From NCBI GenBank assembly GCA_964626905.1, contig CAZVHA010000005.1:51345-115344 (forward strand): DNA of 64,000 nt. The letters are read 5' to 3'. A model generated the notes under the pieces. The model was not told where the DNA came from and made no database searches. It saw only the letters and a program-made list of their open reading frames with translations. This DNA comes from an uncultured bacterium (lineage in GTDB: Bacteria > Chlamydiota > Chlamydiia > Chlamydiales > SM23-39). This document shows, piece by piece, positions 3,886-60,702 of this stretch. The stretch's first letter is position 1. Every line of letters begins with the position of its first letter. A program made the translations under genes and the position numbers.

Positions 3886-3913
3886 AACCCACCCCAGGTG
3901 CTTTTCCGCAGTA

Positions 3914-5892
<1,979 letters not shown>

Positions 5893-13068: not shown

Positions 13069-16000
13069 ATGAGTCATTTAGATGCAGCGATTGAGATCTT
13101 GGATCAAGTAGCGGGCAAACCGCAAACGATCTCGGAGCGGGGGCGATTTGCAGTTGAGCTTGCGGCGTTGATGTTGGAAGAGGCGAATCGGACGATGTCC
13201 TCCTCGGAGAAAAAAGAGCAGGAGCAGCTCAGCCGTTTGATGCGCGATCCTCTTGGGAAAGCGTTTACGACTTCGATGACAGATGAGTGTTTTCGGAGCC
13301 ATTCAAATCGGCGCATTGCAGATCAGATGATCTATCTTTTAAACCAATTGGGGGTACCGCAATATCTCGATTTATGGAAGAAGGCGGAGCTATTTGTCTT
13401 CCGTTCATTGAGTCCGCAGCTTGCGGGGATGTTGATCCCTTTTGCAATGCAGGAGTTGCGGAGGCAAACGGCGAAGGTGATTCTTCCTGGGGAGACGGCC
13501 GCTTTGACGAAGCATCTCAAGGAGCGCAAAGCGGAATCTGTGCGGCAAAACATCAACCATTTGGGCGAAGCGATTTTAAGTGAGGCGGAGGCGAAAAAGA
13601 AGCTCCACCTTTATCTAGAGGATTTAAAGAATCCAGATATCGATTACATGTCGGTGAAAATTTCGACGATTTACAGTCAAATTCAGCTGCTCGCTTTTGA
13701 AGAGACTGTCGAGCATATTGCGCAGAAGCTGAAAAAGTTGTATCGGGCGGCGATGGCGATGAGCCCACCCAAATTCATCAATCTGGATATGGAGGAGTAT
13801 CGGGATCTCGATTTGACGGTAAGCAGTTTTAAGAAGGTGTTGGATGAGCCTGAGTTCCATTCATATTCTGCGGGGATCGTGTTGCAAGCGTACCTGCCCG
13901 ATTCGCATCAATTTCAAAAAGAGTTGACCGAGTGGGCGAAAGTGCGGATCAAGCAAGGGGGGGCGCCGATCAAGATTCGGATTGTGAAGGGAGCGAATTT
14001 GGCGATGGAGCAATTTGAGGCATCGCTGAAGGGGTGGCCGCAGGCACCCTACACGCAAAAGGTGGATGTAGATGCGAATTATAAGCGGATGTTGATTTAC
14101 GGGTGTATTGCAGAAAATGCCCGGGCAGTGCGCCTTGGGATTGCAAGTCACAACCTTTTTGATATTGCCTTTGCGATGCTGCTGCGCTCCGAGAACCGGG
14201 TGGAGCCCTATACGGGATTTGAGATGTTGGAGGGGATGGCAGATCCGATTCGGCGAGTGGTGCAGAAGCTAACGGGAGATATGCTCCTCTACTGTCCTGT
14301 GGCCCTGAAGGAAGATTTTCAACATGCGATTGCCTATTTGATTCGGAGACTGGATGAAAATACGGGGCCGGAGAATTTTTTACGGCATGTATTTGGGCTG
14401 AAACCTGGGACAGAGAATTGGGAGAATCAGACAGCGCTCTTTCTTCAGAGCTGCGATGAAATTGAGACTGTTTTTCAAGGGTCTCGGAGGGTCCAAAATA
14501 GACTTCTTGCGCCAATGGCACATGATCCGAGACTCGGATTTGAAAATGAGCCGGACACCGATTTTTCCCTGCCGCAAAACCGCAAGTGGGCGCAGGAGGT
14601 GGTGCGGCACTGGAAAAGCGTCAAAGAGAAGCCAATTCCCCTCGTGATTGGGGGAAAACAGATTTTGGAAAACGAGGAGGGGGTGGGCCGCTGTCCGAAC
14701 AGCACAACGGAGGAATTTTCAAATGTAAAGCCGCTTTACATTTACACCAAAGCCCATAAACATCATATAGATGCGGCTCTAAAATGCGCAAAAGCGCACG
14801 AAAAGGAGTGGGGGGAAACGACGGCGCAATATCGGGGTCAGCTTTTAGCGCAAGTGGCGCAAGGGTTAAGGCAGAGGCGTGGGGAGCTGATAGGTGCGAT
14901 GATGATGGATGGGGGGAAGCTGATCACAGAGGCGGATCCGGAGGTTTCGGAGGCGATCGATTTTGCCCAGTATTATCGGCGCCAATTAGAGAAGATGTTT
15001 CAGATGAAGGACATTGAGTGGGCGCCTAAGGGGACCATTTTAGTGGCATCGCCGTGGAATTTTCCGTGTGCGATTCCGGCTGGGGGGATGTTGGCGGCGT
15101 TGGCAGCGGGGAACTGTGTGATTTTCAAGCCTTCATCGGAGGTTGTGTTGACAGCTTGGCATTTGGTGAATGTGTTTTGGGATGCTGGGGTTCCGAAGGA
15201 GGTGTTGCAATTTGTTCCCTGTTCTGGCGACGGTGCTGGGGGGGATTTGATCCGGGATGAGCGCATCAATGGCGTGATCTTGACAGGGGGAACTGAGACG
15301 GCGAAATCATTTTTGCGGATGCGGCCCAGTTTAGATCTTGCGGCGGAGACGGGTGGGAAGAATGCGATCATTATTACGGGGTTATCGGATCGGGATTTAG
15401 CGATCAAGGATCTTTTGCACTCTGCGTTTAGCAATTCTGGGCAAAAATGTTCAGCGGCGGCGCTTGGGATCCTTGAGGCAGAAATTTATGATGACCCACA
15501 TTTTCTCGATTCTTTGAAGGAAGCGGCGGCGAGCATGAAGGTGGGGCTGAGTTGGGAGTTGGGTGTAAAAGTAGGGCCATTGATTCATCCTCCGCGTGGG
15601 GCATTGAAGAGGGGGCTAACGACTCTGGAAGAGGGGGAGGAGTGGTTACTAGAGCCTCGGCAGAATCCGGATCATCCTTGTCTTTGGAGTCCGGGGATCA
15701 AGCTTGGGGTACGTGCTGGCAGTTTTACGCATATGACTGAGTTATTTGGGCCTGTTTTGGGTCTTATGAGGGCGGACAATTTGGACCATGCGATTGAGCT
15801 TGCGAATCAGGTGCCGTATGGGTTGACATCGGGGTTGCAGAGTTTAGATGAGCGGGAGCAAGGGAAGTGGCTTGATCGGATAGAGGCGGGCAATCTTTAT
15901 ATCAATCGAGGGATCACGGGTGCGATCGTGCGCAGACAGCCGTTTGGGGGGTGCAAGGCGTCGAGTATTGGGAAGGGGGCGAAAGCTGGTGGGCCGAATT

Positions 16001-16653
16001 ATGTTTGTGAATTTATGAAGCCGAAGCAAACGGGCCTTCCACAGGAAAAGTATCCGGTAAACGAGCGGGTCAATCATCTGACAGCCTTTTTAGATCGGAT
16101 GGACTTGACGGCGGAGCAGCTAGGGGTTTGGACAGCGAGCTGTGCGAACTATGCATATTGGTGGAGGCGGATGAAGCAGGACCGGGACCCATCGAAAATT
16201 GTGGGGCAGGACAATTTCTTCCGCTATGTTCCGAGGAAGAGGATTGTACTGCGTCTTGAGCTGCACTCAAATCCATTGGAATTTTTGAAAGTGTGTGCGG
16301 CGGCGCTCACCTGTGGAGCGGGGGTTGAAATCAGTTATCCGATGGAGCTAGAGACGAAGATTCCGTGGCTGAGAGAACTTGCCTCTATTCCAATCGTTGA
16401 AGAAGCGGAGGAACAATTTTTAAAGCGGCTCCATGACGGAAAGATTGGCCGTTTGCGACTATTGGAGCCCGCAAACGAGAAAATCGCAAAAGCGGCGGCA
16501 CACTCTGCGACCTATATTTCGGATGATTTAGTGTTGACGAATGGGCGCCTAGAGCTATTGCATTATCTTCGCGAAGTATCGATCAGTATCGATTATCATC
16601 GTTATGGGAATTTAGGGCTTCGCGAAGGTGAACTGCGCAAGCCGATTCTCTGA
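13069..16653 (+). CDS. putA: Bifunctional proline dehydrogenase / 1-pyrroline-5-carboxylate dehydrogenase PutA
   Basis: 1194 aa. The N-terminal half is a PRODH barrel (IKIRIVKGANL, EMLEGM). The C-terminal half is an ALDH domain (SPWNFP, FKPSSE, ELGGKN-like ETGGKNA, GQKCSA catalytic Cys). Confidence 0.92.
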   Translation: MSHLDAAIEILDQVAGKPQTISERGRFAVELAALMLEEANRTMSSSEKKEQEQLSRLMRDPLGKAFTTSMTDECFRSHSNRRIADQMIYLLNQLGVPQYLDLWKKAELFVFRSLSPQLAGMLIPFAMQELRRQTAKVILPGETAALTKHLKERKAESVRQNINHLGEAILSEAEAKKKLHLYLEDLKNPDIDYMSVKISTIYSQIQLLAFEETVEHIAQKLKKLYRAAMAMSPPKFINLDMEEYRDLDLTVSSFKKVLDEPEFHSYSAGIVLQAYLPDSHQFQKELTEWAKVRIKQGGAPIKIRIVKGANLAMEQFEASLKGWPQAPYTQKVDVDANYKRMLIYGCIAENARAVRLGIASHNLFDIAFAMLLRSENRVEPYTGFEMLEGMADPIRRVVQKLTGDMLLYCPVALKEDFQHAIAYLIRRLDENTGPENFLRHVFGLKPGTENWENQTALFLQSCDEIETVFQGSRRVQNRLLAPMAHDPRLGFENEPDTDFSLPQNRKWAQEVVRHWKSVKEKPIPLVIGGKQILENEEGVGRCPNSTTEEFSNVKPLYIYTKAHKHHIDAALKCAKAHEKEWGETTAQYRGQLLAQVAQGLRQRRGELIGAMMMDGGKLITEADPEVSEAIDFAQYYRRQLEKMFQMKDIEWAPKGTILVASPWNFPCAIPAGGMLAALAAGNCVIFKPSSEVVLTAWHLVNVFWDAGVPKEVLQFVPCSGDGAGGDLIRDERINGVILTGGTETAKSFLRMRPSLDLAAETGGKNAIIITGLSDRDLAIKDLLHSAFSNSGQKCSAAALGILEAEIYDDPHFLDSLKEAAASMKVGLSWELGVKVGPLIHPPRGALKRGLTTLEEGEEWLLEPRQNPDHPCLWSPGIKLGVRAGSFTHMTELFGPVLGLMRADNLDHAIELANQVPYGLTSGLQSLDEREQGKWLDRIEAGNLYINRGITGAIVRRQPFGGCKASSIGKGAKAGGPNYVCEFMKPKQTGLPQEKYPVNERVNHLTAFLDRMDLTAEQLGVWTASCANYAYWWRRMKQDRDPSKIVGQDNFFRYVPRKRIVLRLELHSNPLEFLKVCAAALTCGAGVEISYPMELETKIPWLRELASIPIVEEAEEQFLKRLHDGKIGRLRLLEPANEKIAKAAAHSATYISDDLVLTNGRLELLHYLREVSISIDYHRYGNLGLREGELRKPIL
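14721..14743. repeat. Copy A of the dispersed palindrome (AAATGTAAAGCCGCTTTACATTT), inside putA
   Basis: 23-nt perfect palindrome. The 21-nt core is at 14722-14742 and is read in-frame as NVKPLYI. Confidence 0.95.
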
Positions 16654-16668
16654 GAGGCTCACCCCCCC

Positions 16669-28223: not shown

Positions 28224-29102
28224 CTATACAAATTGTTTGTTAAACTCCCGTTCCAAAAGCCTCAAGGGAGACTTCTCGGGTGTGAGAAGTCCCTTTTGAG
28301 GAATGATCAAGGTTTGCTCCAAAGCGTACTGGCCCTGAAGAGCGGCGTGGGACACCTGGTCTGTAAAGACAGCCCAGCAAGAAAGGGGGGGGAATTCCCA
28401 GCGTTTTTTCGAACACTGCTCTTGGAATGCGCTATTTTCTTTCAAGTAATTATGGAATCGCAGCATGAAACTATCGTATGGGGAGCGCAGCGCCCATTTC
28501 ATTCCCAAAGGGCGCAAGAGCCTGCGCAATATTTTATAATTGGACTGGGGAATCTCTTTGCCAAACTGTTGTAACAGCTCTTCAAAACTATTCGATGTGT
28601 TCCAAACGCGATTTTCTACTGGGTTAATGTTGGTGAAAAAGCGCAAAATACGGGCTCCATGCAAGGGGCGGGTCGGAAATGCATCGACATGGAGAAGGTC
28701 ATTCCTTGCGCGCAAACGGAGGCCCCGCCCTTTTTCTTGGAAGGGGCGAAAACTGGCGTAGTCGTGTCTCCAATATTTTGCATACGGGGACAATAGCGAA
28801 GAGAGGAAAGTAGTGACTCGATTGGAGTAGCTGCGCAAAATACCTTTTAGTTTTTCTGCTTCCAAGGGATCCTTTGTTTCGTGATTGGTGATCCGATCGA
28901 GTCCCGGTTTGTAGGCGATATTTTTTCTCGCCTTCGACGAACCCTGCTTTTGCGCCAGGAGAAATTCGATCTCATTTTTAGGAAAATCAAAGGGGACCTC
29001 TGGGAAAAAAAGGAGATTGCCCTTTTCCAACTCGGTGCAATATTTCAACCTATTTTCTTCTCGCTCCCATTCTCGATCTTGCACAACAATTTTTTGAGTC
29101 AT
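28224..29102 (-). CDS. kdoO: Kdo hydroxylase-like Fe(II)/2-oxoglutarate dioxygenase (KdoO family)
   Basis: 292 aa from the MTQKIVV ATG at 29102, which overlaps the upstream stop (ATGA). LLHVDAFPTRPLHGARILRFFTNINP carries the HxD at nt 28683-28691. The distal His lies in FTDQVSHAALQGQYALEQT. The longer track ORF to 29444 overlaps the upstream gene and was not used. Confidence 0.7.
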   Translation of the reverse strand: MTQKIVVQDREWEREENRLKYCTELEKGNLLFFPEVPFDFPKNEIEFLLAQKQGSSKARKNIAYKPGLDRITNHETKDPLEAEKLKGILRSYSNRVTTFLSSLLSPYAKYWRHDYASFRPFQEKGRGLRLRARNDLLHVDAFPTRPLHGARILRFFTNINPVENRVWNTSNSFEELLQQFGKEIPQSNYKILRRLLRPLGMKWALRSPYDSFMLRFHNYLKENSAFQEQCSKKRWEFPPLSCWAVFTDQVSHAALQGQYALEQTLIIPQKGLLTPEKSPLRLLEREFNKQFV

Positions 29103-29872
29103 ACCTCTCCTTTTAAATATGCGCGGATAATTCTCCAGCGCAAACAGTTTTGTTTTTCGGCCAAAAGCTCTATCGACATCTTCTTTGAAAGCAGCTCTAT
29201 TTCCCGATCGGTGAGTCTGAAAAGGATCGCCCGAGTGCTGCGGGGATTTTGAGTTTTCTGATCGATCTGATGAGCAGCCCTGCGCAATTGCAAATGGCGC
29301 CGAATCAGGCGATGAAACCCGAGCCCCGTCCAAAAAGCCCCCAACAAATAAAACGGGGGAAAAAAAGCGCCTCCTAAAATAGAAAGCAAAAAGGGCCACG
29401 CTTCCCAGGGGCGGCGCAAAATGGGACCGAGGACCCGTCTCCACCTCTTTTCGGAAGTCATATAGGCAAAAAATTCTTCAAAAACGGCCTCGTTGAACCC
29501 ACATCTCGCCCCGTGAACCGCCTCATGCGCCAAAATCTCCTCTCGGCGATAGAGTTTTAGATAACGGCCTCTCTTTTTTAACCCCTCTCGGAGTTGGATA
29601 GAGCTCAACCTTCCCCCCTCAATCCAGGAAGCTGCTCCTTGCCAGGGGGTGAGTCCCCGATTTGAGTAAAAAGCGCAAATGTAAAGCGGCTTTACATTAA
29701 AAAGTTCATAGAGAAACTCGCGCACCCAGTCCCAATGGACCTCAGGAATCCACTCCCCTTCTTTGTACTGATTTTGGGTCTTTGACACTCTTAGGGCGAA
29801 GGCCTCTTCATCCTCGTTGGGCCCGGGAATGAACCCGATTTTATCTAGCTCCAATAAGTCGCGATCTGTCAT
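29099..29872 (-). CDS. Hypothetical membrane-associated HExxH protein (putative zinc metalloprotease-like)
   Basis: 257 aa. HEAVH at nt 29513-29527 is followed by NEAVFEEF and two hydrophobic helices (WPFLLSILGGAFFPPFYLLGAFWTGLGF). The gene contains palindrome copy B. Confidence 0.55.
   Translation of the reverse strand: MTDRDLLELDKIGFIPGPNEDEEAFALRVSKTQNQYKEGEWIPEVHWDWVREFLYELFNVKPLYICAFYSNRGLTPWQGAASWIEGGRLSSIQLREGLKKRGRYLKLYRREEILAHEAVHGARCGFNEAVFEEFFAYMTSEKRWRRVLGPILRRPWEAWPFLLSILGGAFFPPFYLLGAFWTGLGFHRLIRRHLQLRRAAHQIDQKTQNPRSTRAILFRLTDREIELLSKKMSIELLAEKQNCLRWRIIRAYLKGEV
29678..29698. repeat. Copy B of the dispersed palindrome (AATGTAAAGCGGCTTTACATT), inside the HExxH gene
   Basis: 21-nt perfect palindrome. 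It is read on the minus strand in-frame as NVKPLYI. Confidence 0.95.
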
Positions 29873-42546: not shown

Positions 42547-42560
42547 CAGACCATCGCATT

Positions 42561-46977: not shown

Positions 46978-47612
46978 TGCGAATTAAACTCCCGTTTGAT
47001 GAGGTCCATTTCCACTTCAAACACATCAAAGTAAAGAGGACTGTTGATTTTTTTGAGCCTAAAATCGGTGATCAAAAGATGCGGTAAATGGTTTTCTTTT
47101 ACTCCCTCTTCCCTCGGCAAATCTTCAATGAGGGTAAGAATCTCTTTCAAATCAGTTTCATCCATTTGAACGGGGAGGCGCTGATGTTCTTTTACCTCTT
47201 TCATCTCATCCGATGTCTCGATCTTTTCTTCTTTAAAGCTCAATCGATTTTCATTGATAAAGGCGAGCCTCTCCTGAAAAGCGCCCCGCTCCGGTAAGGC
47301 GGGGTGATTCAAAAGTGCATCGCACTGTTTTTTCTCTTTTTGCAAAAGGGGAAACGATTCAATTTTTCGATCGAGAAAATAGGGATCGGCGCCCGAATGG
47401 CGAAAGAGAAAACGCTCTTTTCTCCCCTTTTTTTCCATGGCGAGTCTCTCGATTCTCGCAGCTTTTCCAAAACGAACTTCGAGATCTTGGAGTAGAGCCG
47501 ATTTTTGCATGAGGAAAAAAAGAGCTCCCAAAATGGGGCTCACGAGAAGAATAAAGAAAAAAAGAGGGCGTATTTGAGAGAAAAAGGCTTTTCCACATTT
47601 TTCAAGGAACAT
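46974..47612 (-). CDS. Hypothetical single-pass membrane protein, 212 aa
   Basis: N-terminal TM segment LFFFILLVSPILGALFFLM. It overlaps both neighbours, by 11 nt upstream and by ATGA downstream, so it is probably co-translated in an operon. Confidence 0.45.
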   Translation of the reverse strand: MFLEKCGKAFFSQIRPLFFFILLVSPILGALFFLMQKSALLQDLEVRFGKAARIERLAMEKKGRKERFLFRHSGADPYFLDRKIESFPLLQKEKKQCDALLNHPALPERGAFQERLAFINENRLSFKEEKIETSDEMKEVKEHQRLPVQMDETDLKEILTLIEDLPREEGVKENHLPHLLITDFRLKKINSPLYFDVFEVEMDLIKREFNSQ

Positions 47613-49158
47613 AAGGGGTCCTATTTTTCAGATAAAAAGTTGTCCTATACGATTCATTCAAAACATCCCAACTGATCTCCAAATGGGGATTTACCAAGTC
47701 ATCTCCTTGTCTTAGCATTTCGTGAAAGCGCCTCGCATTCATCACGTTTTTCAAGGAAAACTCGAGCTCCACTCTCTCTAAATAGGGCTCTTCTGCCGAA
47801 GAAAGAGTCGGAAATTGAACGAGCTCGACTCTCAGCTCCCTCACATCCATCGGATCATTTTCGCCTCTCAACGCCTCCAAGAGGGGGTGTGAAGAGAGCC
47901 AAGCGAGCACCTCAACCACTTTGGGCGCTGTGGGGAGATAGGGATACTCTCGATTGTTCTCTTCGACCATTTCAATCCACCGATCGATCCGCTCTTCCAT
48001 GCTCCCTTCCAATCCGATCTCTTTAGGCAAAGAAGGATGAAGCATATGGAGCATTTGTTCTTGCGCCGACTTTTCGAATCGAATCCCCCAAAAGAAAAGG
48101 AGCGCACTTAAAAAAAGGGACGTTCCTAAAAGAGCGAGGGCGATTTTCCCCATCCGAATCCAGTTCTTCTTCGGAAAAAATTCTCCTCTTCGAAGCTGCA
48201 GGGGCTTAAAGAGAATCTGCTCTAAGCATAAACCGAGACTCACCGCATATTTTTGCTCTTCCAAAGACAAGGTCCATTCACCGCGCGCGAAATCGATGAG
48301 AAATTCGGGCAGATGGATAAAGGCATCCGTCCTCCCAGTAAAAAGGAGGGGACACACCTTATTTTTGGTATAGGAATAGTGCACTTTTCCAATCTCTTGT
48401 CGCAAGGAATTGAGTTGCATTGATAAATGGGGATTGAGATGCGGCTTGAAAAGGAGCAGATCGATCTGTTGCGCCGCCCCTTCAATCTCCGTTTTTAAAA
48501 GGACCCTTTTTCGGTCATCGTAAAGAGCTGCTAAAAGGTTTTCTACACCAATTGAAATGGGATGCGCCCGTTTTAATCTTCCATTTTCCATAAAGACGCA
48601 AGTAACCCCTTCAGATCCGATATCGACGATAAACGCGTTGGTTACCTTGGGAAATTTCCATCGGATAAAGTGGCAAAGGGCAGAAGCGGTTGTACTCACG
48701 ACATCGGGATCGATCCCCCATTTGGCAAGCTCATCGAGGTGTTTTCTCATCTCACTTCGCGGAATCGTAAAAATGAGAGCCTCTGATTGCCCTTTTTCAA
48801 CGAGGGGAATTGCGAGAATTTCATTCGGTTTAAAATGGCTGAGCGCCTCTGATTTAAAACTCAAGGTCTCTTCCAGATAACGAAAGCTCCCATTTTTAGT
48901 GCCAGTCGTTCGGACTAAAAAGTCGGTCGCAGCAAGCCCACTGACCACTTTCCCTCTGAAAGTTTGAATGTAAAGCCGCTTTACATTTGGCTGTTTTGGA
49001 GCTGCCAAAGCCTCCGAATGGCCATTTGAATCTATTGCCTCTGTCTCCCCAACCATGGGGAGGGTTTCCATCCAGCGGATGTCGATCTTTTGACCCGACT
49101 TTCGGATGAGGCTAACGCGCAAAAAAGGGAAATCTTTATGGACGCCGAGAATCTGCAT
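47602..49158 (-). CDS. PilM/GspL-like protein: actin-fold cytoplasmic domain, single TM, then a periplasmic domain
   Basis: 518 aa. FIVDIGSEGVTCVFMENGRLKRAHPISIGVENLL resembles PilM/FtsA-type nucleotide-binding strands. There is one TM segment (IALALLGTSLFLSALLFFWGI) about two-thirds along. The gene contains palindrome copy C. Confidence 0.45.
   Translation of the reverse strand: MQILGVHKDFPFLRVSLIRKSGQKIDIRWMETLPMVGETEAIDSNGHSEALAAPKQPNVKRLYIQTFRGKVVSGLAATDFLVRTTGTKNGSFRYLEETLSFKSEALSHFKPNEILAIPLVEKGQSEALIFTIPRSEMRKHLDELAKWGIDPDVVSTTASALCHFIRWKFPKVTNAFIVDIGSEGVTCVFMENGRLKRAHPISIGVENLLAALYDDRKRVLLKTEIEGAAQQIDLLLFKPHLNPHLSMQLNSLRQEIGKVHYSYTKNKVCPLLFTGRTDAFIHLPEFLIDFARGEWTLSLEEQKYAVSLGLCLEQILFKPLQLRRGEFFPKKNWIRMGKIALALLGTSLFLSALLFFWGIRFEKSAQEQMLHMLHPSLPKEIGLEGSMEERIDRWIEMVEENNREYPYLPTAPKVVEVLAWLSSHPLLEALRGENDPMDVRELRVELVQFPTLSSAEEPYLERVELEFSLKNVMNARRFHEMLRQGDDLVNPHLEISWDVLNESYRTTFYLKNRTPYVP
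48967..48987. repeat. Copy C of the dispersed palindrome (AATGTAAAGCCGCTTTACATT), inside the PilM/GspL-like gene
   Basis: 21-nt perfect palindrome. It is read on the minus strand in-frame as NVKRLYI. Confidence 0.95.
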
Positions 49159-53170: not shown

Positions 53171-53174
53171 AAAA

Positions 53175-56988: not shown

Positions 56989-59148
56989 ATGAAATGGCTC
57001 TTGATCCTCTTCCCCCTCTCTCTCTTCTGCCAGGCAGAAAGTATTTGTTGCCTTGAGTCGCCCGCCTGTCAACTCTTCAAAGATCTAGAGATCGTGGGGA
57101 AAATCGATCAGGAGATCAAAGACAAACTTCCCGTCGTCATTAACTACCAGCTACAGGGAGGATATTTCGCCATGCCGTCGGCCCGCACATTTGTAGCAGG
57201 GGCTTTGGGATTCGGATTTGCCTATGCTCCCCCCTACCACATCTGGAGCTTGGGATTCCAGTTTTTTGATCACCTTGAGGCGACGGGAAACTATTGGATT
57301 TACAAGGGAGTTTTGGATAGCATTTTTGGCTCATTGGGGTTTGGAGATACGGCCGAAAGAGCCGCCAATCTCAAATGGGTCCTCTTGAGAAGAGAGGATG
57401 GCTTTTCTTTCTTGCCCGACTTTGCCCTTGGATTGAACGATTTTATGGGCACCTGCCGCTTTAAGTCGTTTTATGTAGTCATGACAAAAGAATTTTTGAA
57501 GTGGAATCTGGAGGCGACCCTCGGCTGGGGCTGCGGGCGGATCCAAGGATTTTACGGGGGCGCAGCTTGGAGCCCTTTTCGCTACTGGGATACATTTTTA
57601 AAAAATTTGACTTTGGCCGCTGAATACGATGCAAATAACTACAAAAAGCACACCCACGAACACCCGAGCGGCAGGAGTGTGAAGAGCCGGATCAACGCGG
57701 GGCTCCAATGGACCCTTTGGGATTTGATCCGCTTTTCTGGGAGCACTTTGCGCGGGGAAGCACTCGCAGGGAGCATCGCCCTGAACTACAATTTGGGAAG
57801 TTCCAAAGGATTGCTGCCAAAAACGAATAACCCCCTTCCCTACTGCGCGCCCATCGATACACAGCCCATCGGACTTTTGAGAAATAGACAAGAGCTCGCC
57901 CAAGAGTTTGCCTACGCCTTTCAAGAGCAGGGCTTTGATCTCTATCACCTCTATCTCGTTCCCACAGATTGCGGCCAGGATAGACTTTGGATGAGGGTGG
58001 TCAACGTCCGCTACCGAGAAGAGGATGAGGTGCGCAATCGGATCCAATATGTCCTCGCCGCCCTCACCCCATCCAATATTTCTGGCGTCACCGTTGTGAG
58101 CGAAGCGGAAGGGATCCCCATCCAAGAGTACCGGTTTCGCCGGGAAGATTTGAGGCGCTATGCAGAAGGGAAATTGGGAGAGGACGAGTTTCGGGTGATC
58201 TCCCCGCCAAATGAGGTCTCAAATACGCCTGATAAATATGACGCAGCGCTCTTGTACCGCAGAAAAAAAGCGATTTGGATTCTCACACTTCGCCCCTGGT
58301 TTCGCTCCTTCTTAGGATCGAGCCGTGGCAAATTCAAATACGAAGTGGGCCTTGCCCTAAATCCCGAAGGATATCTCTTCGATGAGATCTACTACAATAT
58401 CTGCGGTACTTATACTGCGAAATCAAGCGCACAGGATATCGAGGCGCAAGATTTTATCAACCCCTCTCGCCTGATCAATGTCCGCACCGATTCCATTCTC
58501 TACAACCAATCCAATACCTGGCATCTCGAATCGGCCTTTTTCCAAAAGAGTTGGAACATGAGTCAAGGCTGGTTTTCAAGACTTGCCGCCGGATATTTTG
58601 AGATGGCCTACGGGGGATTTGCCCTTGAAACTCTCTATTACCCCGTCGACGTGAATTGGGCCGTCGGCTTTTCTGCGGCCGCCCTCTTTAAAAGAAGTTA
58701 CTACGGCTTAGGCTTCCAACAAAAGGTGCGAAAACTCACCGACGATGGGCCGATCTATGTTCCCTACACCGGATTGCAATACTTTGCCGATTTTTACTAC
58801 CAGTACCGGCCACTTGCGCTCGACTTTAAATTGAGCGCTGGACAATTTCTCGCAAGGGACAAAGGGATTCGGGTCGAAGGGGGGCGCACATTTGCCAGCG
58901 GGCTCAGAGTCGGACTCTGGTATACCCTGACAAATGCGGGAGACCAGGTCAATGGGAGCCGCTATTATGACAAGGGATTTTCAATCACCATGCCTCTCGA
59001 TCTATTCCTCAGAAAATCGAGCCGTACGCGGATCGGCTACGCGATGTCTGCATGGCTCAGAGATTGCGGAGCCATTGGCTCAACAGGCAAACAGCTCTAT
59101 CCGACCCTTTTCTGGTCTCGCTACAACACAAAGCCGGTATTTTATTGA
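56989..59148 (+). CDS. YjbH-family outer membrane/exopolysaccharide-associated protein
   Basis: 719 aa with a signal peptide. FAMPSAR near the N-terminus. The C-terminal blocks GYFEMAYGGFALETLYYPVDVNWAVG, SAGQFLARDKG and GFSITMPLDLFL...SRTRIGY...LRDCG match the E. coli YjbH pattern as I remember it. Confidence 0.8.
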   Translation: MKWLLILFPLSLFCQAESICCLESPACQLFKDLEIVGKIDQEIKDKLPVVINYQLQGGYFAMPSARTFVAGALGFGFAYAPPYHIWSLGFQFFDHLEATGNYWIYKGVLDSIFGSLGFGDTAERAANLKWVLLRREDGFSFLPDFALGLNDFMGTCRFKSFYVVMTKEFLKWNLEATLGWGCGRIQGFYGGAAWSPFRYWDTFLKNLTLAAEYDANNYKKHTHEHPSGRSVKSRINAGLQWTLWDLIRFSGSTLRGEALAGSIALNYNLGSSKGLLPKTNNPLPYCAPIDTQPIGLLRNRQELAQEFAYAFQEQGFDLYHLYLVPTDCGQDRLWMRVVNVRYREEDEVRNRIQYVLAALTPSNISGVTVVSEAEGIPIQEYRFRREDLRRYAEGKLGEDEFRVISPPNEVSNTPDKYDAALLYRRKKAIWILTLRPWFRSFLGSSRGKFKYEVGLALNPEGYLFDEIYYNICGTYTAKSSAQDIEAQDFINPSRLINVRTDSILYNQSNTWHLESAFFQKSWNMSQGWFSRLAAGYFEMAYGGFALETLYYPVDVNWAVGFSAAALFKRSYYGLGFQQKVRKLTDDGPIYVPYTGLQYFADFYYQYRPLALDFKLSAGQFLARDKGIRVEGGRTFASGLRVGLWYTLTNAGDQVNGSRYYDKGFSITMPLDLFLRKSSRTRIGYAMSAWLRDCGAIGSTGKQLYPTLFWSRYNTKPVFY

Positions 59149-59158
59149 TTGATCCACC

Positions 59159-59189
59159 ACTCAAATGTAAAGCCGCTTTACATTTGAGT
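59159..59189. terminator. Copy D of the dispersed palindrome, extended to 31 nt (ACTCAAATGTAAAGCCGCTTTACATTTGAGT). Candidate bidirectional terminator.
   Basis: Perfect 15+1+15 palindrome lying exactly between convergent genes ending at 59148 (+) and 59178 (-). It contains the last codons CAA ATG TAA of the minus-strand gene. No clear U-tract. Confidence 0.5.
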
Positions 59190-60527
59190 TTCCACCGCCG
59201 CTCTCTTTTTTCGACTCCAGACCCAAATTTCCCCTGCACAAAACCCTAAAAAGGAGAGAGAAATGGAGATGATTTCGGAAGGAAACGGCGAGGCGACAAA
59301 TCGGAAAAAGCAAAAACTGCAAAGGCCGATGAAAATGGCCAAAAGGGCCGAGATAAAATTCCCTTGCGGCCTAAATAGAGCGATAAAGATCGGCACAAAG
59401 AGACAACTCAAAGAGAGTTCATAGCTTTGGATAAGGACATCGACGACGTTGTTGAAAAGAAAGGCAAATAAAATGGCGCCAATCGACATGAGCGCAGTCA
59501 AAAATTGCATAAAGGCAACCCCTTCTTTTTCCCTAAAAAAATCTTGTGAGAGATTCGAGCTGATCGCATTGATGAGTGATGTCGCGGTTGAAATGATAGC
59601 GGCAATCACTGCGCAACCAACAACAGCTGAAATCCAAGGGTTGGTGAAAGCGTTGATCGCAACCATGAGGATGCTGGCCCCTTCCGAAGGGATAACGCCC
59701 ATTTTTTTAGCAAATACGCCCAAAAAAACGGGAATACAACAAATCAGCAAAGTAAGAACTCCTGCTGCGAAAGTAGCCCTGGAGACTGTTTTTGGAGAAT
59801 CGCCTGCAAAGCAGCGCTGTCCCATATCTTGTTCGATCGTCATAAAAAGAAGGGGCATCAAAAGCCATCCCACCCATTTTGACGAGGAGCTCGCGAATGG
59901 CTCTACCACCATCGGAGCGCTCCAATCGCTACTCCAAGCAACAAATGCAAATGAGAAGAAGAAAACAAGGGAAAAGACAAACGCCTGGGCGATATCCGTT
60001 GAAATGACCGCTTTTAGCCCCCCTTTCACTGTATAGGCAATGATAATCGCCCAAAAGAAGATAAAAAGAGGCGTGCTGGAAAAGCCGAGCGTCAGTAGAA
60101 ATTTGCGCGAGGCGATGATCTGGCCGACCAATATCATAAACAAAGAGATGACGGAGAGGGTGGAGGCCACTTTTTTTAAGAAGGGAGATCGGTAGACGAG
60201 CTCCAAAATTTGGGCCACCGTTGAAACTGGGAATTTGGCTAATTTTTTTCCCAACCCCAATCCGAGCCCAATCAATCCTAAAGAAGCGCCCAAAGGATAT
60301 AGAAGGACAGGCCACCCGTATCGATAGGCCTCCTCAGCTGCTCCTAAAACAAGCCCCCCGCCCACTTGTGTTGCTAAAAAAGTCATCAATAAAGGGAAAA
60401 ACGAAACACTTTTCCCTGCTAAAAAGTAGTCCTCTTTCCCCTTCAGATTTTTTGACGAGCGCCTTCCAATCACCCAATAAAGCGCCTGGAGGCCAAAGAG
60501 AAGAAAAATAAAAAATGTTATATCCAT
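59178..60527 (-). CDS. Sodium:solute symporter family (SSS) transporter
   Basis: About 449 aa, polytopic. YFLAGKSVSFF and GGGLVLGAAEEAY are typical of PutP/PanF-type SSS proteins. The ATG at 60527 is preferred over the track GTG at 60533. Confidence 0.85.
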   Translation of the reverse strand: MDITFFIFLLFGLQALYWVIGRRSSKNLKGKEDYFLAGKSVSFFPLLMTFLATQVGGGLVLGAAEEAYRYGWPVLLYPLGASLGLIGLGLGLGKKLAKFPVSTVAQILELVYRSPFLKKVASTLSVISLFMILVGQIIASRKFLLTLGFSSTPLFIFFWAIIIAYTVKGGLKAVISTDIAQAFVFSLVFFFSFAFVAWSSDWSAPMVVEPFASSSSKWVGWLLMPLLFMTIEQDMGQRCFAGDSPKTVSRATFAAGVLTLLICCIPVFLGVFAKKMGVIPSEGASILMVAINAFTNPWISAVVGCAVIAAIISTATSLINAISSNLSQDFFREKEGVAFMQFLTALMSIGAILFAFLFNNVVDVLIQSYELSLSCLFVPIFIALFRPQGNFISALLAIFIGLCSFCFFRFVASPFPSEIISISLSFLGFCAGEIWVWSRKKRAAVETQM

Positions 60528-60702
60528 AACCACCCAAAAATTTTTTAAAGTTTACAATGCAACCGTTCTACAAAAAAAGATCAATGGTGATGGTGGAAAT
60601 GAATAGGAGAGACGAGATAAGTCTTTATTTTTGAAAAATTTATTTGCATTGCCATAAATCCATCTCCTTGGTGGATGGGGACATTCTAAGAAAAGGGTCT
60701 AT

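What the first reader, a model, noticed from the sequence alone, without database searches (positions are those of the whole stretch)
59159..59189. The longest palindrome copy sits between two convergent genes and supplies a stop codon
At this locus the palindrome extends to 31 nt (15+1+15, perfect). It fills almost the entire 29-nt gap between the YjbH-like gene (stop at 59148) and the SSS transporter gene (stop at 59178-59180). The transporter's final codons, CAA ATG TAA, are part of the palindrome. The element may therefore have inserted into or replaced the original 3' end. It is the only convincing hairpin I found at any convergent gene junction in the window, and no T-tract follows it. 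This suggests a role as a bidirectional intrinsic or factor-assisted terminator.
Basis: partly seen in the sequence, partly recalled or inferred. Interest (0 to 1): 0.55.

Follow-up and report, generated by a model that had tools for sequence, protein, structure and literature searches.

The report
Conserved chlamydial palindrome capping a gene
The 31-base palindrome is real and does give the transporter gene its stop codon, but it is one copy of a short, almost invariant palindrome found across many chlamydial genomes, often inside genes, and in a group of unknown phages, so it looks like a signal read by a specific protein and not like an ordinary terminator.

Summary
Window 59159-59189 is a perfect 15+1+15 palindrome, and its CAA ATG TAA supplies the last codons and the stop of the SSS transporter gene.

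The transporter is not truncated. At least four related species have the same palindrome-derived ...QM*/...EM* ending.

The 21-nt core AATGTAAAGCNGCTTTACATT occurs four times in the window. Three copies lie inside long ORFs and are read in frame as NVK[P/R]LYI. No copy in the window has 1-4 mismatches.

The same core occurs in at least 108 loci, nearly all labelled as or syntenic with Chlamydiota MAGs. About 44% of copies are inside genes, and 20% sit at gene ends, where the stop lies in or within a few codons of the palindrome. The 19-nt version occurs in at least 120 viral-contig loci; the two examined are tailed phages. There it sits mostly between cistrons.

In a PilM-like gene, the site is 96% identical across ten orthologs, against 48-61% for the flanks. 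All synonymous positions are fixed, so selection acts on the nucleic acid.

No U-tract follows the palindrome. Relatives carry a separate hairpin after it. I found no target-site duplications and no recurrent transposase.

Best reading: a REP-like or parS-like cis-element recognised by sequence, which is tolerated at gene ends because it carries stop codons on both strands. A terminator role for this extended copy is possible but untested.

The parts
59159..59189 (.). Perfect 31-nt palindrome (15+1+15), the extended copy named in the finding
   Evidence: RNA hairpin of -15.9 kcal/mol, z = -4.9.
59164..59184 (.). Conserved 21-nt core AATGTAAAGCCGCTTTACATT, shared with the other copies and with other genomes
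   Evidence: four exact copies in the window, 0.00 expected; at least 108 loci in genome collections.
59178..59189 (-). Last three codons and stop of the SSS gene (ACT CAA ATG TAA), encoded by one arm of the palindrome
   Evidence: The same ...QM* ending occurs in orthologs P0002-P0005. DNA confirms it in L112, L111 and, as ...EM*, L119.
59178..60533 (-). Sodium:solute symporter (SSS) gene, 451 aa ORF (449 aa as called in public data)
   Evidence: Pfam PF00474, E=1.3e-21. 951 homologs; the best 120 are 432-471 aa long.
56989..59148 (+). Convergent YjbH-family gene. Its stop lies 10 nt before the palindrome.
   Evidence: Pfam PF06082, E=1.1e-147.
14722..14742 (+). Family copy inside the PutA gene (13069-16653), read in frame as NVKPLYI
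   Evidence: The orthologous copy is present in L098.
29678..29698 (-). Family copy inside a 257-aa ORF (29099-29872), read in frame as NVKPLYI
   Evidence: The L097 ortholog has a segment of the same length without the palindrome.
48967..48987 (-). Family copy inside a PilM-like 518-aa gene (47602-49158), read as NVKRLYI. This is an ancient site under nucleic-acid-level selection.

Best explanation
The palindrome at 59159-59189 is one copy of a dispersed, sequence-invariant palindromic cis-element. The core is (A)ATGTAAAGC-N-GCTTTACAT(T). It occurs in many Chlamydiota genomes and in a group of uncharacterised tailed phages.

I think it is a recognition site for a conserved, sequence-specific factor. 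The factor is most likely a symmetric dimeric DNA-binding protein, and less likely a protein that binds the hairpin form. The element is kept by purifying selection on the nucleic acid. In kind it works like REP elements, or like parS, Noc or KorB-type sites: many near-identical copies placed wherever the genome tolerates them.

Read in one frame, the element contains ATG TAA on both strands. In the other two frames it is open (NVKxLYI and CKAALH). It therefore survives in three kinds of place: between genes, in frame in variable parts of proteins, and exactly at gene ends, where it donates a Met codon and the stop. The SSS copy is of the last type.

Shown: family membership, the stop-codon donation and its conservation, selection at the DNA level, and the absence of terminator hallmarks.

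Inferred: that a protein recognises the element, and that recognition is of duplex DNA. The five extra base pairs at this locus may add a stable hairpin at the 3' ends of both convergent mRNAs. That is conjecture.
For: 1. Four exact 21-mers occur in 64 kb, with 0.00 expected. None has 1-4 mismatches, and half-sites never occur alone.

2. The exact 21-mer occurs in at least 108 loci of the one-genome-per-species collection. Nearly all are labelled as Chlamydiota MAGs or are syntenic with this chlamydial window. The flanks are unrelated and the centre base is free. About 0.5 matches are expected by chance (my estimate).

3. In the PilM-like gene the site is 0.96 identical across ten orthologs, against 0.48 and 0.61 for the flanks. 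In five orthologs fetched without regard to the palindrome, the codons GTA AAG CNG CTT TAC are identical at every synonymous position in four of five. The centre base varies.

4. The same sites recur at orthologous positions in several species. Examples are the region upstream of thrS, the PolA linker, a TrmH-like gene and the PutA gene.

5. The SSS-end copy is present in five of seven close relatives, with a different neighbouring gene.

6. The element supplies stops at other gene ends: GroEL in L093 and L074, HemB in L118, a phage lipoprotein in L196, and both convergent ORFs at once in L053 and L076.

7. At least 120 viral-contig loci carry the 19-mer, against about 2 expected (my estimate). 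The two examined closely (L196, L159) are tailed phages. There, 78% of copies are non-internal and the Shine-Dalgarno sequence starts 0-6 nt after the palindrome.

8. All ten stem positions are Watson-Crick in all perfect copies. This fits recognition of symmetric duplex DNA.
Against: - No binding protein has been identified.
- Transcription-factor sites are usually more degenerate than this all-or-none pattern.
- The position between a stop codon and the next Shine-Dalgarno sequence in phages fits an RNA hairpin role equally well.
- One variant (L125) has a C-to-T change that keeps a G-U pair in the sense RNA.
- An 83-nt composite form, with 14-nt inverted ends identical to the half-site, exists in some genomes. 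It looks like a miniature transposon.
- Copies at the SSS, hemB and groEL gene ends come and go between species. This fits mobility as well as site turnover.
Confidence: 0.5

Rival explanations
1. Bidirectional terminator, intrinsic or factor-assisted, or a 3'-end stabilising hairpin. On this view the element works as an RNA stem-loop at the end of transcripts on both strands.
For: - The 31-mer folds into a stable 14-bp hairpin on both strands.
- 20% of host copies sit at gene ends, and many more lie in short intergenic gaps.
- In phages the element lies between cistrons, including a tandem pair after the head and structural genes.
- Stem extensions of 3 bp or more occur mainly outside coding sequence: 9 of 63 non-internal copies against 2 of 50 internal ones.
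- The L125 variant keeps a G-U pair.
- Translating ribosomes would silence hairpins that lie inside ORFs.
Against: - There is no U-tract on either strand, and the terminator scan does not call the site.
- The core-only hairpin is weak, at about -7 kcal/mol.
- 44% of host copies are internal to ORFs. One of them is conserved more strongly than the protein that contains it.
- The stem sequence is invariant where a structure-only signal would covary.
- In relatives a separate, stronger hairpin follows the palindrome.
- The other convergent junctions in the window have no hairpin at all.
Confidence: 0.2
2. A selfish miniature mobile element, a REP- or MITE-like mini-palindrome. It spreads through host and phage genomes and persists where insertions are tolerated, with no function for the host.
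For: - Copies are near-identical and their flanks are unrelated.
- The element is present or absent at orthologous gene ends.
- It is translated in frame inside genes, as Rickettsia palindromic elements are.
- An 83-nt composite form has 14-nt terminal inverted repeats. In L066 it occupies, in frame (+20 aa), the same site where the window has the solo palindrome.
- The element occurs in both phages and hosts.
- PutA carries 6 extra residues at the site relative to palindrome-free homologs.
Against: - Flanking direct repeats occur no more often than chance in 113 copies.
- No transposase gene recurs near copies.
- The PilM-like copy is ancient and is kept intact at synonymous positions while its flanks diverged to about 50% identity.
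- In the 257-aa protein and in L098 PutA the palindrome replaces a segment of about equal length and does not add 21 nt.
- Decayed copies are almost absent.
Confidence: 0.2
3. An uptake-signal-like sequence, kept and spread by biased DNA uptake and recombination. The parallel is the neisserial and Haemophilus uptake sequences, whose inverted pairs sit after genes.
For: - The sequence is invariant and restricted to the clade.
- Many copies lie in coding regions in tolerated frames.
- Orthologous positions are conserved, and copies sit at gene ends.
- At the PilM-like and PutA sites, palindrome-free or variant orthologs carry similar sequence (xVKxLYx, PLYxY). This could mean the palindrome arose in place.
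Against: - Known uptake sequences are 9-12-nt non-palindromic words at about one per kb, with many one-mismatch copies.
- Here half-sites never occur alone, the density is about 1 per 16 kb, and mismatched copies are nearly absent.
- A presence in phages is not expected for an uptake signal.
- No uptake specificity is known in Chlamydiae (my knowledge).
Confidence: 0.05

Closest known systems
REP (repetitive extragenic palindromic) elements of proteobacteria, including GTAG/CGTC-tagged REPs
   Same: Both are short (20-40 nt) dispersed palindromes at a density of roughly one per 10-20 kb. Both lie mostly after genes or between convergent or co-directional genes. Their ends can supply the stop codon of the flanking ORF, and some copies lie inside ORFs (PMC3733652). 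Proposed roles for REPs include mRNA stabilisation, termination and protein binding.
   Different: This element has no GTAG or CGTC tag and is a perfect palindrome. About 44% of copies are inside ORFs. The sequence is invariant across many species of a phylum and is not species-specific. The element also occurs in phages. No RAYT transposase was seen near copies.
Rickettsia palindromic elements (RPE)
   Same: Both are palindromic repeats found in frame inside protein-coding genes of obligate intracellular bacteria. Both are conserved at orthologous positions between species.
   Different: RPEs are about 100-150 bp and are clear insertions. This element is 17-21 bp. In at least some genes it occupies a segment of the same length as in palindrome-free orthologs. 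It is also under DNA-level purifying selection.
Palindromic loading or operator sites of ParB-family proteins (chromosomal parS, Noc-binding sites, KorB operator OB = TTTAGCGGCTAAA)
   Same: Both are near-perfect palindromes of 13-16 bp. They are highly conserved, often lie inside genes and occur in multiple copies. KorB OB is also odd-centred and shares the central AGCNGCT (PMC11790492).
   Different: The sequence matches neither parS nor OB outside the centre. No ParB-like partner has been identified. Clustering near the origin could not be tested. Presence in phage intercistronic gaps is not typical of these sites.
Neisseria and Haemophilus DNA uptake sequences arranged as inverted pairs after genes
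   Same: Both are clade-specific invariant words. Both occur in coding regions in preferred frames, and as hairpin-forming inverted pairs at gene ends.
   Different: Half-sites never occur singly here. The density is 10-20 times lower. Mismatched copies are nearly absent.
Canonical intrinsic (Rho-independent) terminator
   Same: Both form a stem-loop directly after a stop codon.
   Different: The stem is AT-rich and no U-tract follows. The sequence is conserved and the structure does not covary. Many copies lie inside ORFs.

Membership tests
Intrinsic terminator | U-rich tract immediately 3' of the stem | tested here: not met
   Downstream sequence is TTCCACCGCC on the + strand and GGTGGATCAATC on the - strand. 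The scan does not call the site.
Intrinsic terminator | Stable G+C-rich stem-loop | tested here: inconclusive
   The stem is 14 bp with only 4 G-C pairs, at -15.9 kcal/mol. Core-only copies fold at about -7 kcal/mol.
Intrinsic terminator | Located after genes and not inside them | tested here: not met
   Three of four window copies and 50 of 113 copies in relatives are internal to long ORFs.
REP / RAYT system | Short palindromic repeat in many dispersed copies | tested here: met
   Four copies in 64 kb. Ten or more copies in some MAGs.
REP / RAYT system | Conserved GTAG or CGTC tetranucleotide at one end | tested here: not met
   The flanks show only a weak CA/TG preference. No GTAG or CGTC is present.
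REP / RAYT system | Extragenic location | tested here: not met
   44% of copies are internal to ORFs.
REP / RAYT system | Cognate RAYT (Y1 transposase) gene flanked by the repeats | tested here: inconclusive
   No recurrent transposase family was found among 957 ORFs within 1.5 kb of copies. Whole genomes were not available.
MITE | Terminal inverted repeats plus target-site duplication, length about 50-500 bp | tested here: not met
   The solo element is 21-31 bp. Flanking direct repeats occur at chance level. An 83-nt composite with 14-nt TIRs exists in other genomes but not in this window.
Rickettsia palindromic elements | 100-150-bp palindromic insertion, in frame, absent from orthologs as a clean indel | tested here: not met
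   The length is 21 bp. The indel evidence is mixed: +6 aa in window PutA, about +1 aa in L098 PutA, and 0 in the 257-aa protein.
DNA uptake sequence | Single short word that is abundant on its own, with many one-mismatch variants | tested here: not met
   Half-sites occur only within the palindrome. The window has no copies with 1-4 mismatches.
ParB/KorB-type site | Match to parS or to OB, and binding by a ParB-family protein | not testable with these tools
   Only the centre AGCNGCT is shared with OB.
Known chlamydial TF operators (Euo, HrcA/CIRCE, PhoB/ChxR, NrdR) | Match to the published consensus | tested here: not met
   The published motifs are Euo TTAAAAACAAATTTT, HrcA TAGCA-N15-TGCTAA and a 21-bp PhoB motif (PMC4989314). 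None resembles the palindrome. The NrdR consensus was not retrieved; my recollection of it (acaCwAtATaTwGtgt) does not resemble the palindrome.

The most novel reading that the evidence does not exclude
The palindrome is a previously undescribed cis-signal found across many Chlamydiota genomes. It is read by an unknown conserved factor. It could be a sequence-specific, orientation-independent termination or processing signal, or a chromosome-organising site. Tailed phages that infect chlamydiae have adopted it. Its presence would then give the first sequence handle for assigning tailed phages to chlamydial hosts.
Probability: 0.35. Interest if true: 0.85.

Novelty: new variant of a known kind. 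Interest (0 to 1): 0.66.

Why it matters
Gene regulation and chromosome biology are poorly charted in environmental chlamydiae. A 17-21-bp palindrome that stays invariant across species whose proteins have diverged to 36% identity, even inside coding sequence, points to a specific and conserved recognition system that nobody has described.

The element also shapes proteins. It adds NVKxLYI or CKAALH peptides and donates Met-stop endings, sometimes to two convergent genes at once.

It also links a large set of uncharacterised viral contigs, many of 33-41 kb, to chlamydial hosts. Only small Microviridae phages are known for chlamydiae (my knowledge).

For annotation, the element explains recurrent ...M* gene ends. 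It also warns against calling such hairpins terminators.

Tried and rejected
- Rfam: no family matches the window or the loci that carry the composite element.
- Target-site duplication: the TCCACC repeat that flanks this copy (59153-59158 and 59191-59196) looked like one. Across 113 copies, flanking direct repeats are at chance level.
- Transposase or DNA-binding gene next to copies: clustering of 957 host ORFs and 198 phage ORFs near copies found only housekeeping or structural genes.
- Promoter reading: the palindrome contains TTTACA, a -35-like hexamer. A good -10 at 17 nt was found only upstream of thrS in L075. In phages the Shine-Dalgarno sequence follows too closely.
- CRP-type site (AAATGTGA-N6-TCACATTT, from memory): the flanks are similar, but the half-site and the spacing (N7) differ.
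- Known chlamydial TF motifs: no match.
- GenBank phages and PLSDB plasmids: only chance partial hits to the 35-mer. The phage contigs have no close cultured relative.
- Metagenome scan for SSS relatives: it returned only five distant loci, none with the palindrome.
- Regular spacing: the window copies are 10-19 kb apart.
- Centre-base strand bias in oriented phage copies: too weak to use.
- Literature searches for a described chlamydial palindrome found nothing.

Full report
**1. The observation**

Window 59159-59189 reads ACTCAAATGTAAAGC-C-GCTTTACATTTGAGT. It is a perfect 15+1+15 palindrome. None of 100 shuffles produced a match.

The plus-strand ORF 56989-59148 is a YjbH-family protein. The minus-strand ORF 59178-60533 is a sodium:solute symporter. 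The two stops are 29 nt apart. The palindrome covers 19 of those 29 nt and extends 12 nt into the symporter ORF. The codons ACT CAA ATG TAA (T Q M stop) therefore come from one arm.

No T-run follows on either strand. The terminator scan of 56-62 kb does not call the site. As RNA it folds into a 14-bp stem with a 3-nt loop, at -15.9 kcal/mol (z = -4.9).

**2. It is one copy of a family, and most copies are inside genes**

The 21-nt core AATGTAAAGCNGCTTTACATT occurs four times in the window, at 14722, 29678, 48967 and 59164. The expected number is 0.00. The window has no copy with 1-4 mismatches, and the 10-nt half-site never occurs alone.

Three copies lie inside long ORFs, and all three are read in the same frame:
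- PutA (13069-16653): ...FSNVKPLYIYTK...
- A 257-aa protein (29099-29872, minus strand): ...LFNVKPLYICAF...
- A PilM-like 518-aa protein (47602-49158, minus strand)...QPNVKRLYIQTF....

The element has 7 x 3 bases, so a given frame reads the same on either strand. Frame 1 gives NVKxLYI, frame 3 gives CKAALH, and frame 2 contains ATG TAA. The symporter copy is the frame-2 case.

**3. Distribution in other genomes**

Nearly all are MAGs labelled Chlamydiia, Chlamydiales, Parachlamydiales, Simkaniaceae or Waddliaceae, or MAGs labelled Verrucomicrobia or "uncultured bacterium". Several of the latter are syntenic with this chlamydial window.

The flanks are unrelated, so the repeat unit is the palindrome alone. 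The centre base is any of the four. The only flank preference is a weak CA...TG.

The 113 copies fall into four classes:
- 50 internal to long ORFs, roughly evenly split between frames 1 and 3
- 23 at gene ends, with the stop inside the palindrome or within a few codons after it
- 10 just upstream of a gene or at its start
- 30 intergenic.

About 88% of a random sample would be internal. The element is therefore depleted in coding sequence and enriched several-fold at gene boundaries, but it is far from extragenic.

**4. The symporter locus in relatives**

The symporter is not truncated. It has 449-451 aa, against 432-471 aa for the best 119 homologs. The variable tail after the conserved GE motif has the usual length.

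The closest orthologs (68-71% identity) end ...TQM, ...LQM, ...PQM, ...SQM or ...SEM. Their DNA shows the palindrome over the stop:
- L112: CAAATGTAAAGCGGCTTTACATTT
- L119: GAAATGTAAAGCGGCTTTACATT
- L111: CAGATGTAAAGCTGCTTTACATG, a 19-mer core.

In L045 (67% identity) the gene ends earlier, and a 19-mer copy lies 48 nt after the stop. L118 (70%) and L120 (67%) lack the palindrome, as do five orthologs at 57-61% identity.

In L111, L112 and L045 the next gene is on the same strand, and yjbH lies 2-4 kb away. The palindrome therefore belongs to the symporter's 3' end and not to the convergent junction.

In L111 and L112 a separate, G+C-richer hairpin follows within 10-25 nt. The same arrangement is seen after a 447-aa ORF in L045 and after groEL in L093 and L074.

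**5. Turnover and stop donation elsewhere**

- GroEL orthologs in L093 and L074 end ...GGM* with ATG TAA from the palindrome. The window's groEL (3914-5596) has no palindrome.
- HemB in L118 ends in the palindrome. The window's hemB does not.
- In L080 the palindrome begins inside the stop codon of a protein whose C-terminus (FWKNR*) is identical to the window ortholog, which lacks the palindrome.
- In L053 and L076 both convergent ORFs end with Met-stop from the same palindrome.

**6. Selection acts on the nucleic acid**

All 120 homologs of the PilM-like protein (36-100% identity) carry a motif [NDHGS]VK[QPRL]LY[ITKN]. Only 34 read NVKxLYI.

I fetched DNA for five orthologs without regard to the palindrome. 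The results were:
- L121: AAT GTA AAG CAG CTT TAC ATT
- L122: GAT GTA AAG CAG CTT TAC ATT
- L123: AAT GTA AAG CTG CTT TAC AAA
- L124: CAT GTA AAG CAG CTT TAC AAT
- L125: GAT GTA AAG CAG TTT TAC ATG.

Every synonymous position of V, K, L and Y is fixed, while the centre base varies. Over ten orthologs the site is 0.96 identical, against 0.48 and 0.61 for the 24-nt flanks. The "protein motif" is therefore a consequence of a conserved DNA or RNA element. Its 17-nt core is TGTAAAGCNGCTTTACA.

Other sites recur at orthologous positions in several species:
- about 55 nt upstream of thrS
- the PolA inter-domain linker
- a TrmH-like methyltransferase gene
- the PutA gene
- a dapA/methyltransferase spacer.

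**7. Insertion or conversion in place?**

The evidence is mixed.
- Against Thermus P5C dehydrogenase, and against the closest palindrome-free PutA homologs, the window PutA has six extra residues at the site. However, the right arm overlies a native PLY[QR]Y, and the L098 PutA differs in length by about one residue.
- In the 257-aa protein, the L097 ortholog has a segment of identical length (FDFEPGCLK against FNVKPLYIC).
- Flanking direct repeats occur at chance frequency. The TCCACC pair around the window copy is therefore not evidence of transposition.
- No transposase recurs near copies.

On the other side, some MAGs carry an 83-nt composite element. It has the form palindrome - N5 - GGGGNCCCCGAAAAACGCCTCGTTTTTTGGGGT - TTTGTATTGCNGCTTTACATTT, with 14-nt inverted ends. 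In L066 it occupies, in frame (+20 aa), the PilM-like site where the window and L082 have the solo palindrome. The window has no composite element.

**8. Phages**

Their GC content is 0.32-0.47. Many contigs are 33-41 kb, often with 2-5 copies each.

The two I examined closely are tailed phages. L196 encodes an exonuclease, RecT and tail proteins. L159 encodes the major head protein and tail proteins. Head proteins in GenBank phages are at most 25% identical. The phage loci share no nucleotide similarity with the chlamydial loci apart from the palindrome.

Of 119 phage copies, 93 are not internal to genes. In 47 copies that could be oriented, the Shine-Dalgarno sequence begins 0-6 nt after the palindrome. 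The copies recurrently flank one structural gene downstream of the head gene. L159 has a tandem pair there. In L196 one copy donates ATG TAA to a lipoprotein gene, and its last bases form the next gene's ATG.

**9. What it most likely is**

Seventeen to nineteen specified bases stay invariant across hundreds of copies, many species and phages. The dyad is perfect and the centre is free. Decayed copies are nearly absent. The element is conserved at synonymous sites. Together these features require sequence-specific recognition by a conserved factor and purifying selection on the nucleic acid.

Perfect Watson-Crick symmetry favours duplex DNA read by a symmetric dimer. The intercistronic placement in phages and one G-U-preserving variant keep an RNA-hairpin reader in play.

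The symporter copy is explained without a special story. The element is tolerated at gene ends because it carries its own stop codon in both orientations. The five extra pairs at this locus could give both convergent mRNAs a stable 3' hairpin, but nothing tested here shows termination.

**10. Comparison with what is known**

The closest kind is REP elements, whose ends are known to donate stop codons and which occasionally lie in ORFs (PMC3733652). The defining GTAG/CGTC tag and the extragenic habit are not met here.

RPEs share the in-frame habit, but not the size or a clean-insertion signature. ParB-family sites share the conservation and the intragenic tolerance. KorB's OB (TTTAGCGGCTAAA) even shares the centre AGCNGCT, but there is no further match.

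Published chlamydial TF motifs do not match. Literature searches found no description of this palindrome.

**11. Verdict**

The finding is real, and its stop-codon observation is correct. Its terminator interpretation is not what the evidence points to.

The wider result is a chlamydial palindromic element that is invariant across many species, is under nucleic-acid-level selection and is shared with an uncharacterised phage group. I rate it a new variant of a known kind (dispersed palindromic repeats). Its reader and function are still unknown.

Noticed in passing
L021 2408-2495; L043 18-105; L052 1954-2040; L064 820-906; L066 6374-6460; L010, L017, L034 (reverse orientation): An 83-nt composite element: palindrome + N5 + GGGGNCCCCGAAAAACGCCTCGTTTTTTGGGGT + TTTGTATTGCNGCTTTACATTT. 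Its 14-nt inverted ends equal the half-site. In L066 it is translated in frame (+20 aa) inside the PilM-like gene. It is absent from the window.
   Followed up: partly
L128-L247 (IMG/VR contigs), e.g. L196 2582-2600 and 13367-13385; L159 6709-6752: Uncharacterised viral contigs, many 33-41 kb, carry 2-5 copies of the palindrome, mostly wedged between a stop codon and the next Shine-Dalgarno sequence. L159 has a tandem pair after the head and structural genes. The two examined (L196, L159) are tailed phages. They may be the first tailed phages assignable to chlamydial hosts.
   Followed up: partly
L053 1394-1414; L076 1586-1606: Two convergent ORFs (307 and 306 codons in L053; 326 and 146 in L076) both end with Met-stop supplied by the two strands of one palindrome.
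   Followed up: yes
window 47602-49158 and orthologs P0241-P0360: The conserved motif xVKxLYx of this PilM-like protein family is encoded by the palindrome with all synonymous positions fixed. The apparent protein motif is probably a by-product of a DNA or RNA element about 117-180 nt into the gene.
   Followed up: yes
L055 1218, L095 2766, L075 5157, L037 4100: A palindrome copy is conserved about 55 nt upstream of the thrS start codon in four species. In L075 its TTTACA lies 17 nt before a TACAAT hexamer, which makes a good sigma-70-type promoter.
   Followed up: partly
L002 3660-3810; L095 near 2780-2860: Arrays of GGACTC hexamer repeats, and GGGCAA/GGGCAT repeats, lie next to palindrome copies in MAGs from study SRP200132.
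   Followed up: no
window 59153-59158 and 59191-59196: A TCCACC direct repeat brackets the 31-nt palindrome and looks like a target-site duplication. Across 113 copies such repeats are no more frequent than chance.
   Followed up: yes
window 3886-3913, 16654-16668, 42547-42560, 53171-53174 and overlapping pairs at about 11806, 20261, 34893, 62308: Convergent gene pairs in this window are separated by fewer than 30 nt or overlap, and have no hairpin. Termination between convergent genes here evidently does not rely on intergenic stem-loops.
   Followed up: partly
window 14722, 29678, 48967, 59164: The four copies are spaced 15.0, 19.3 and 10.2 kb apart, which is more even than random placement would suggest. 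With n = 4, and with the genome scan truncated, regular spacing could not be tested.
   Followed up: no
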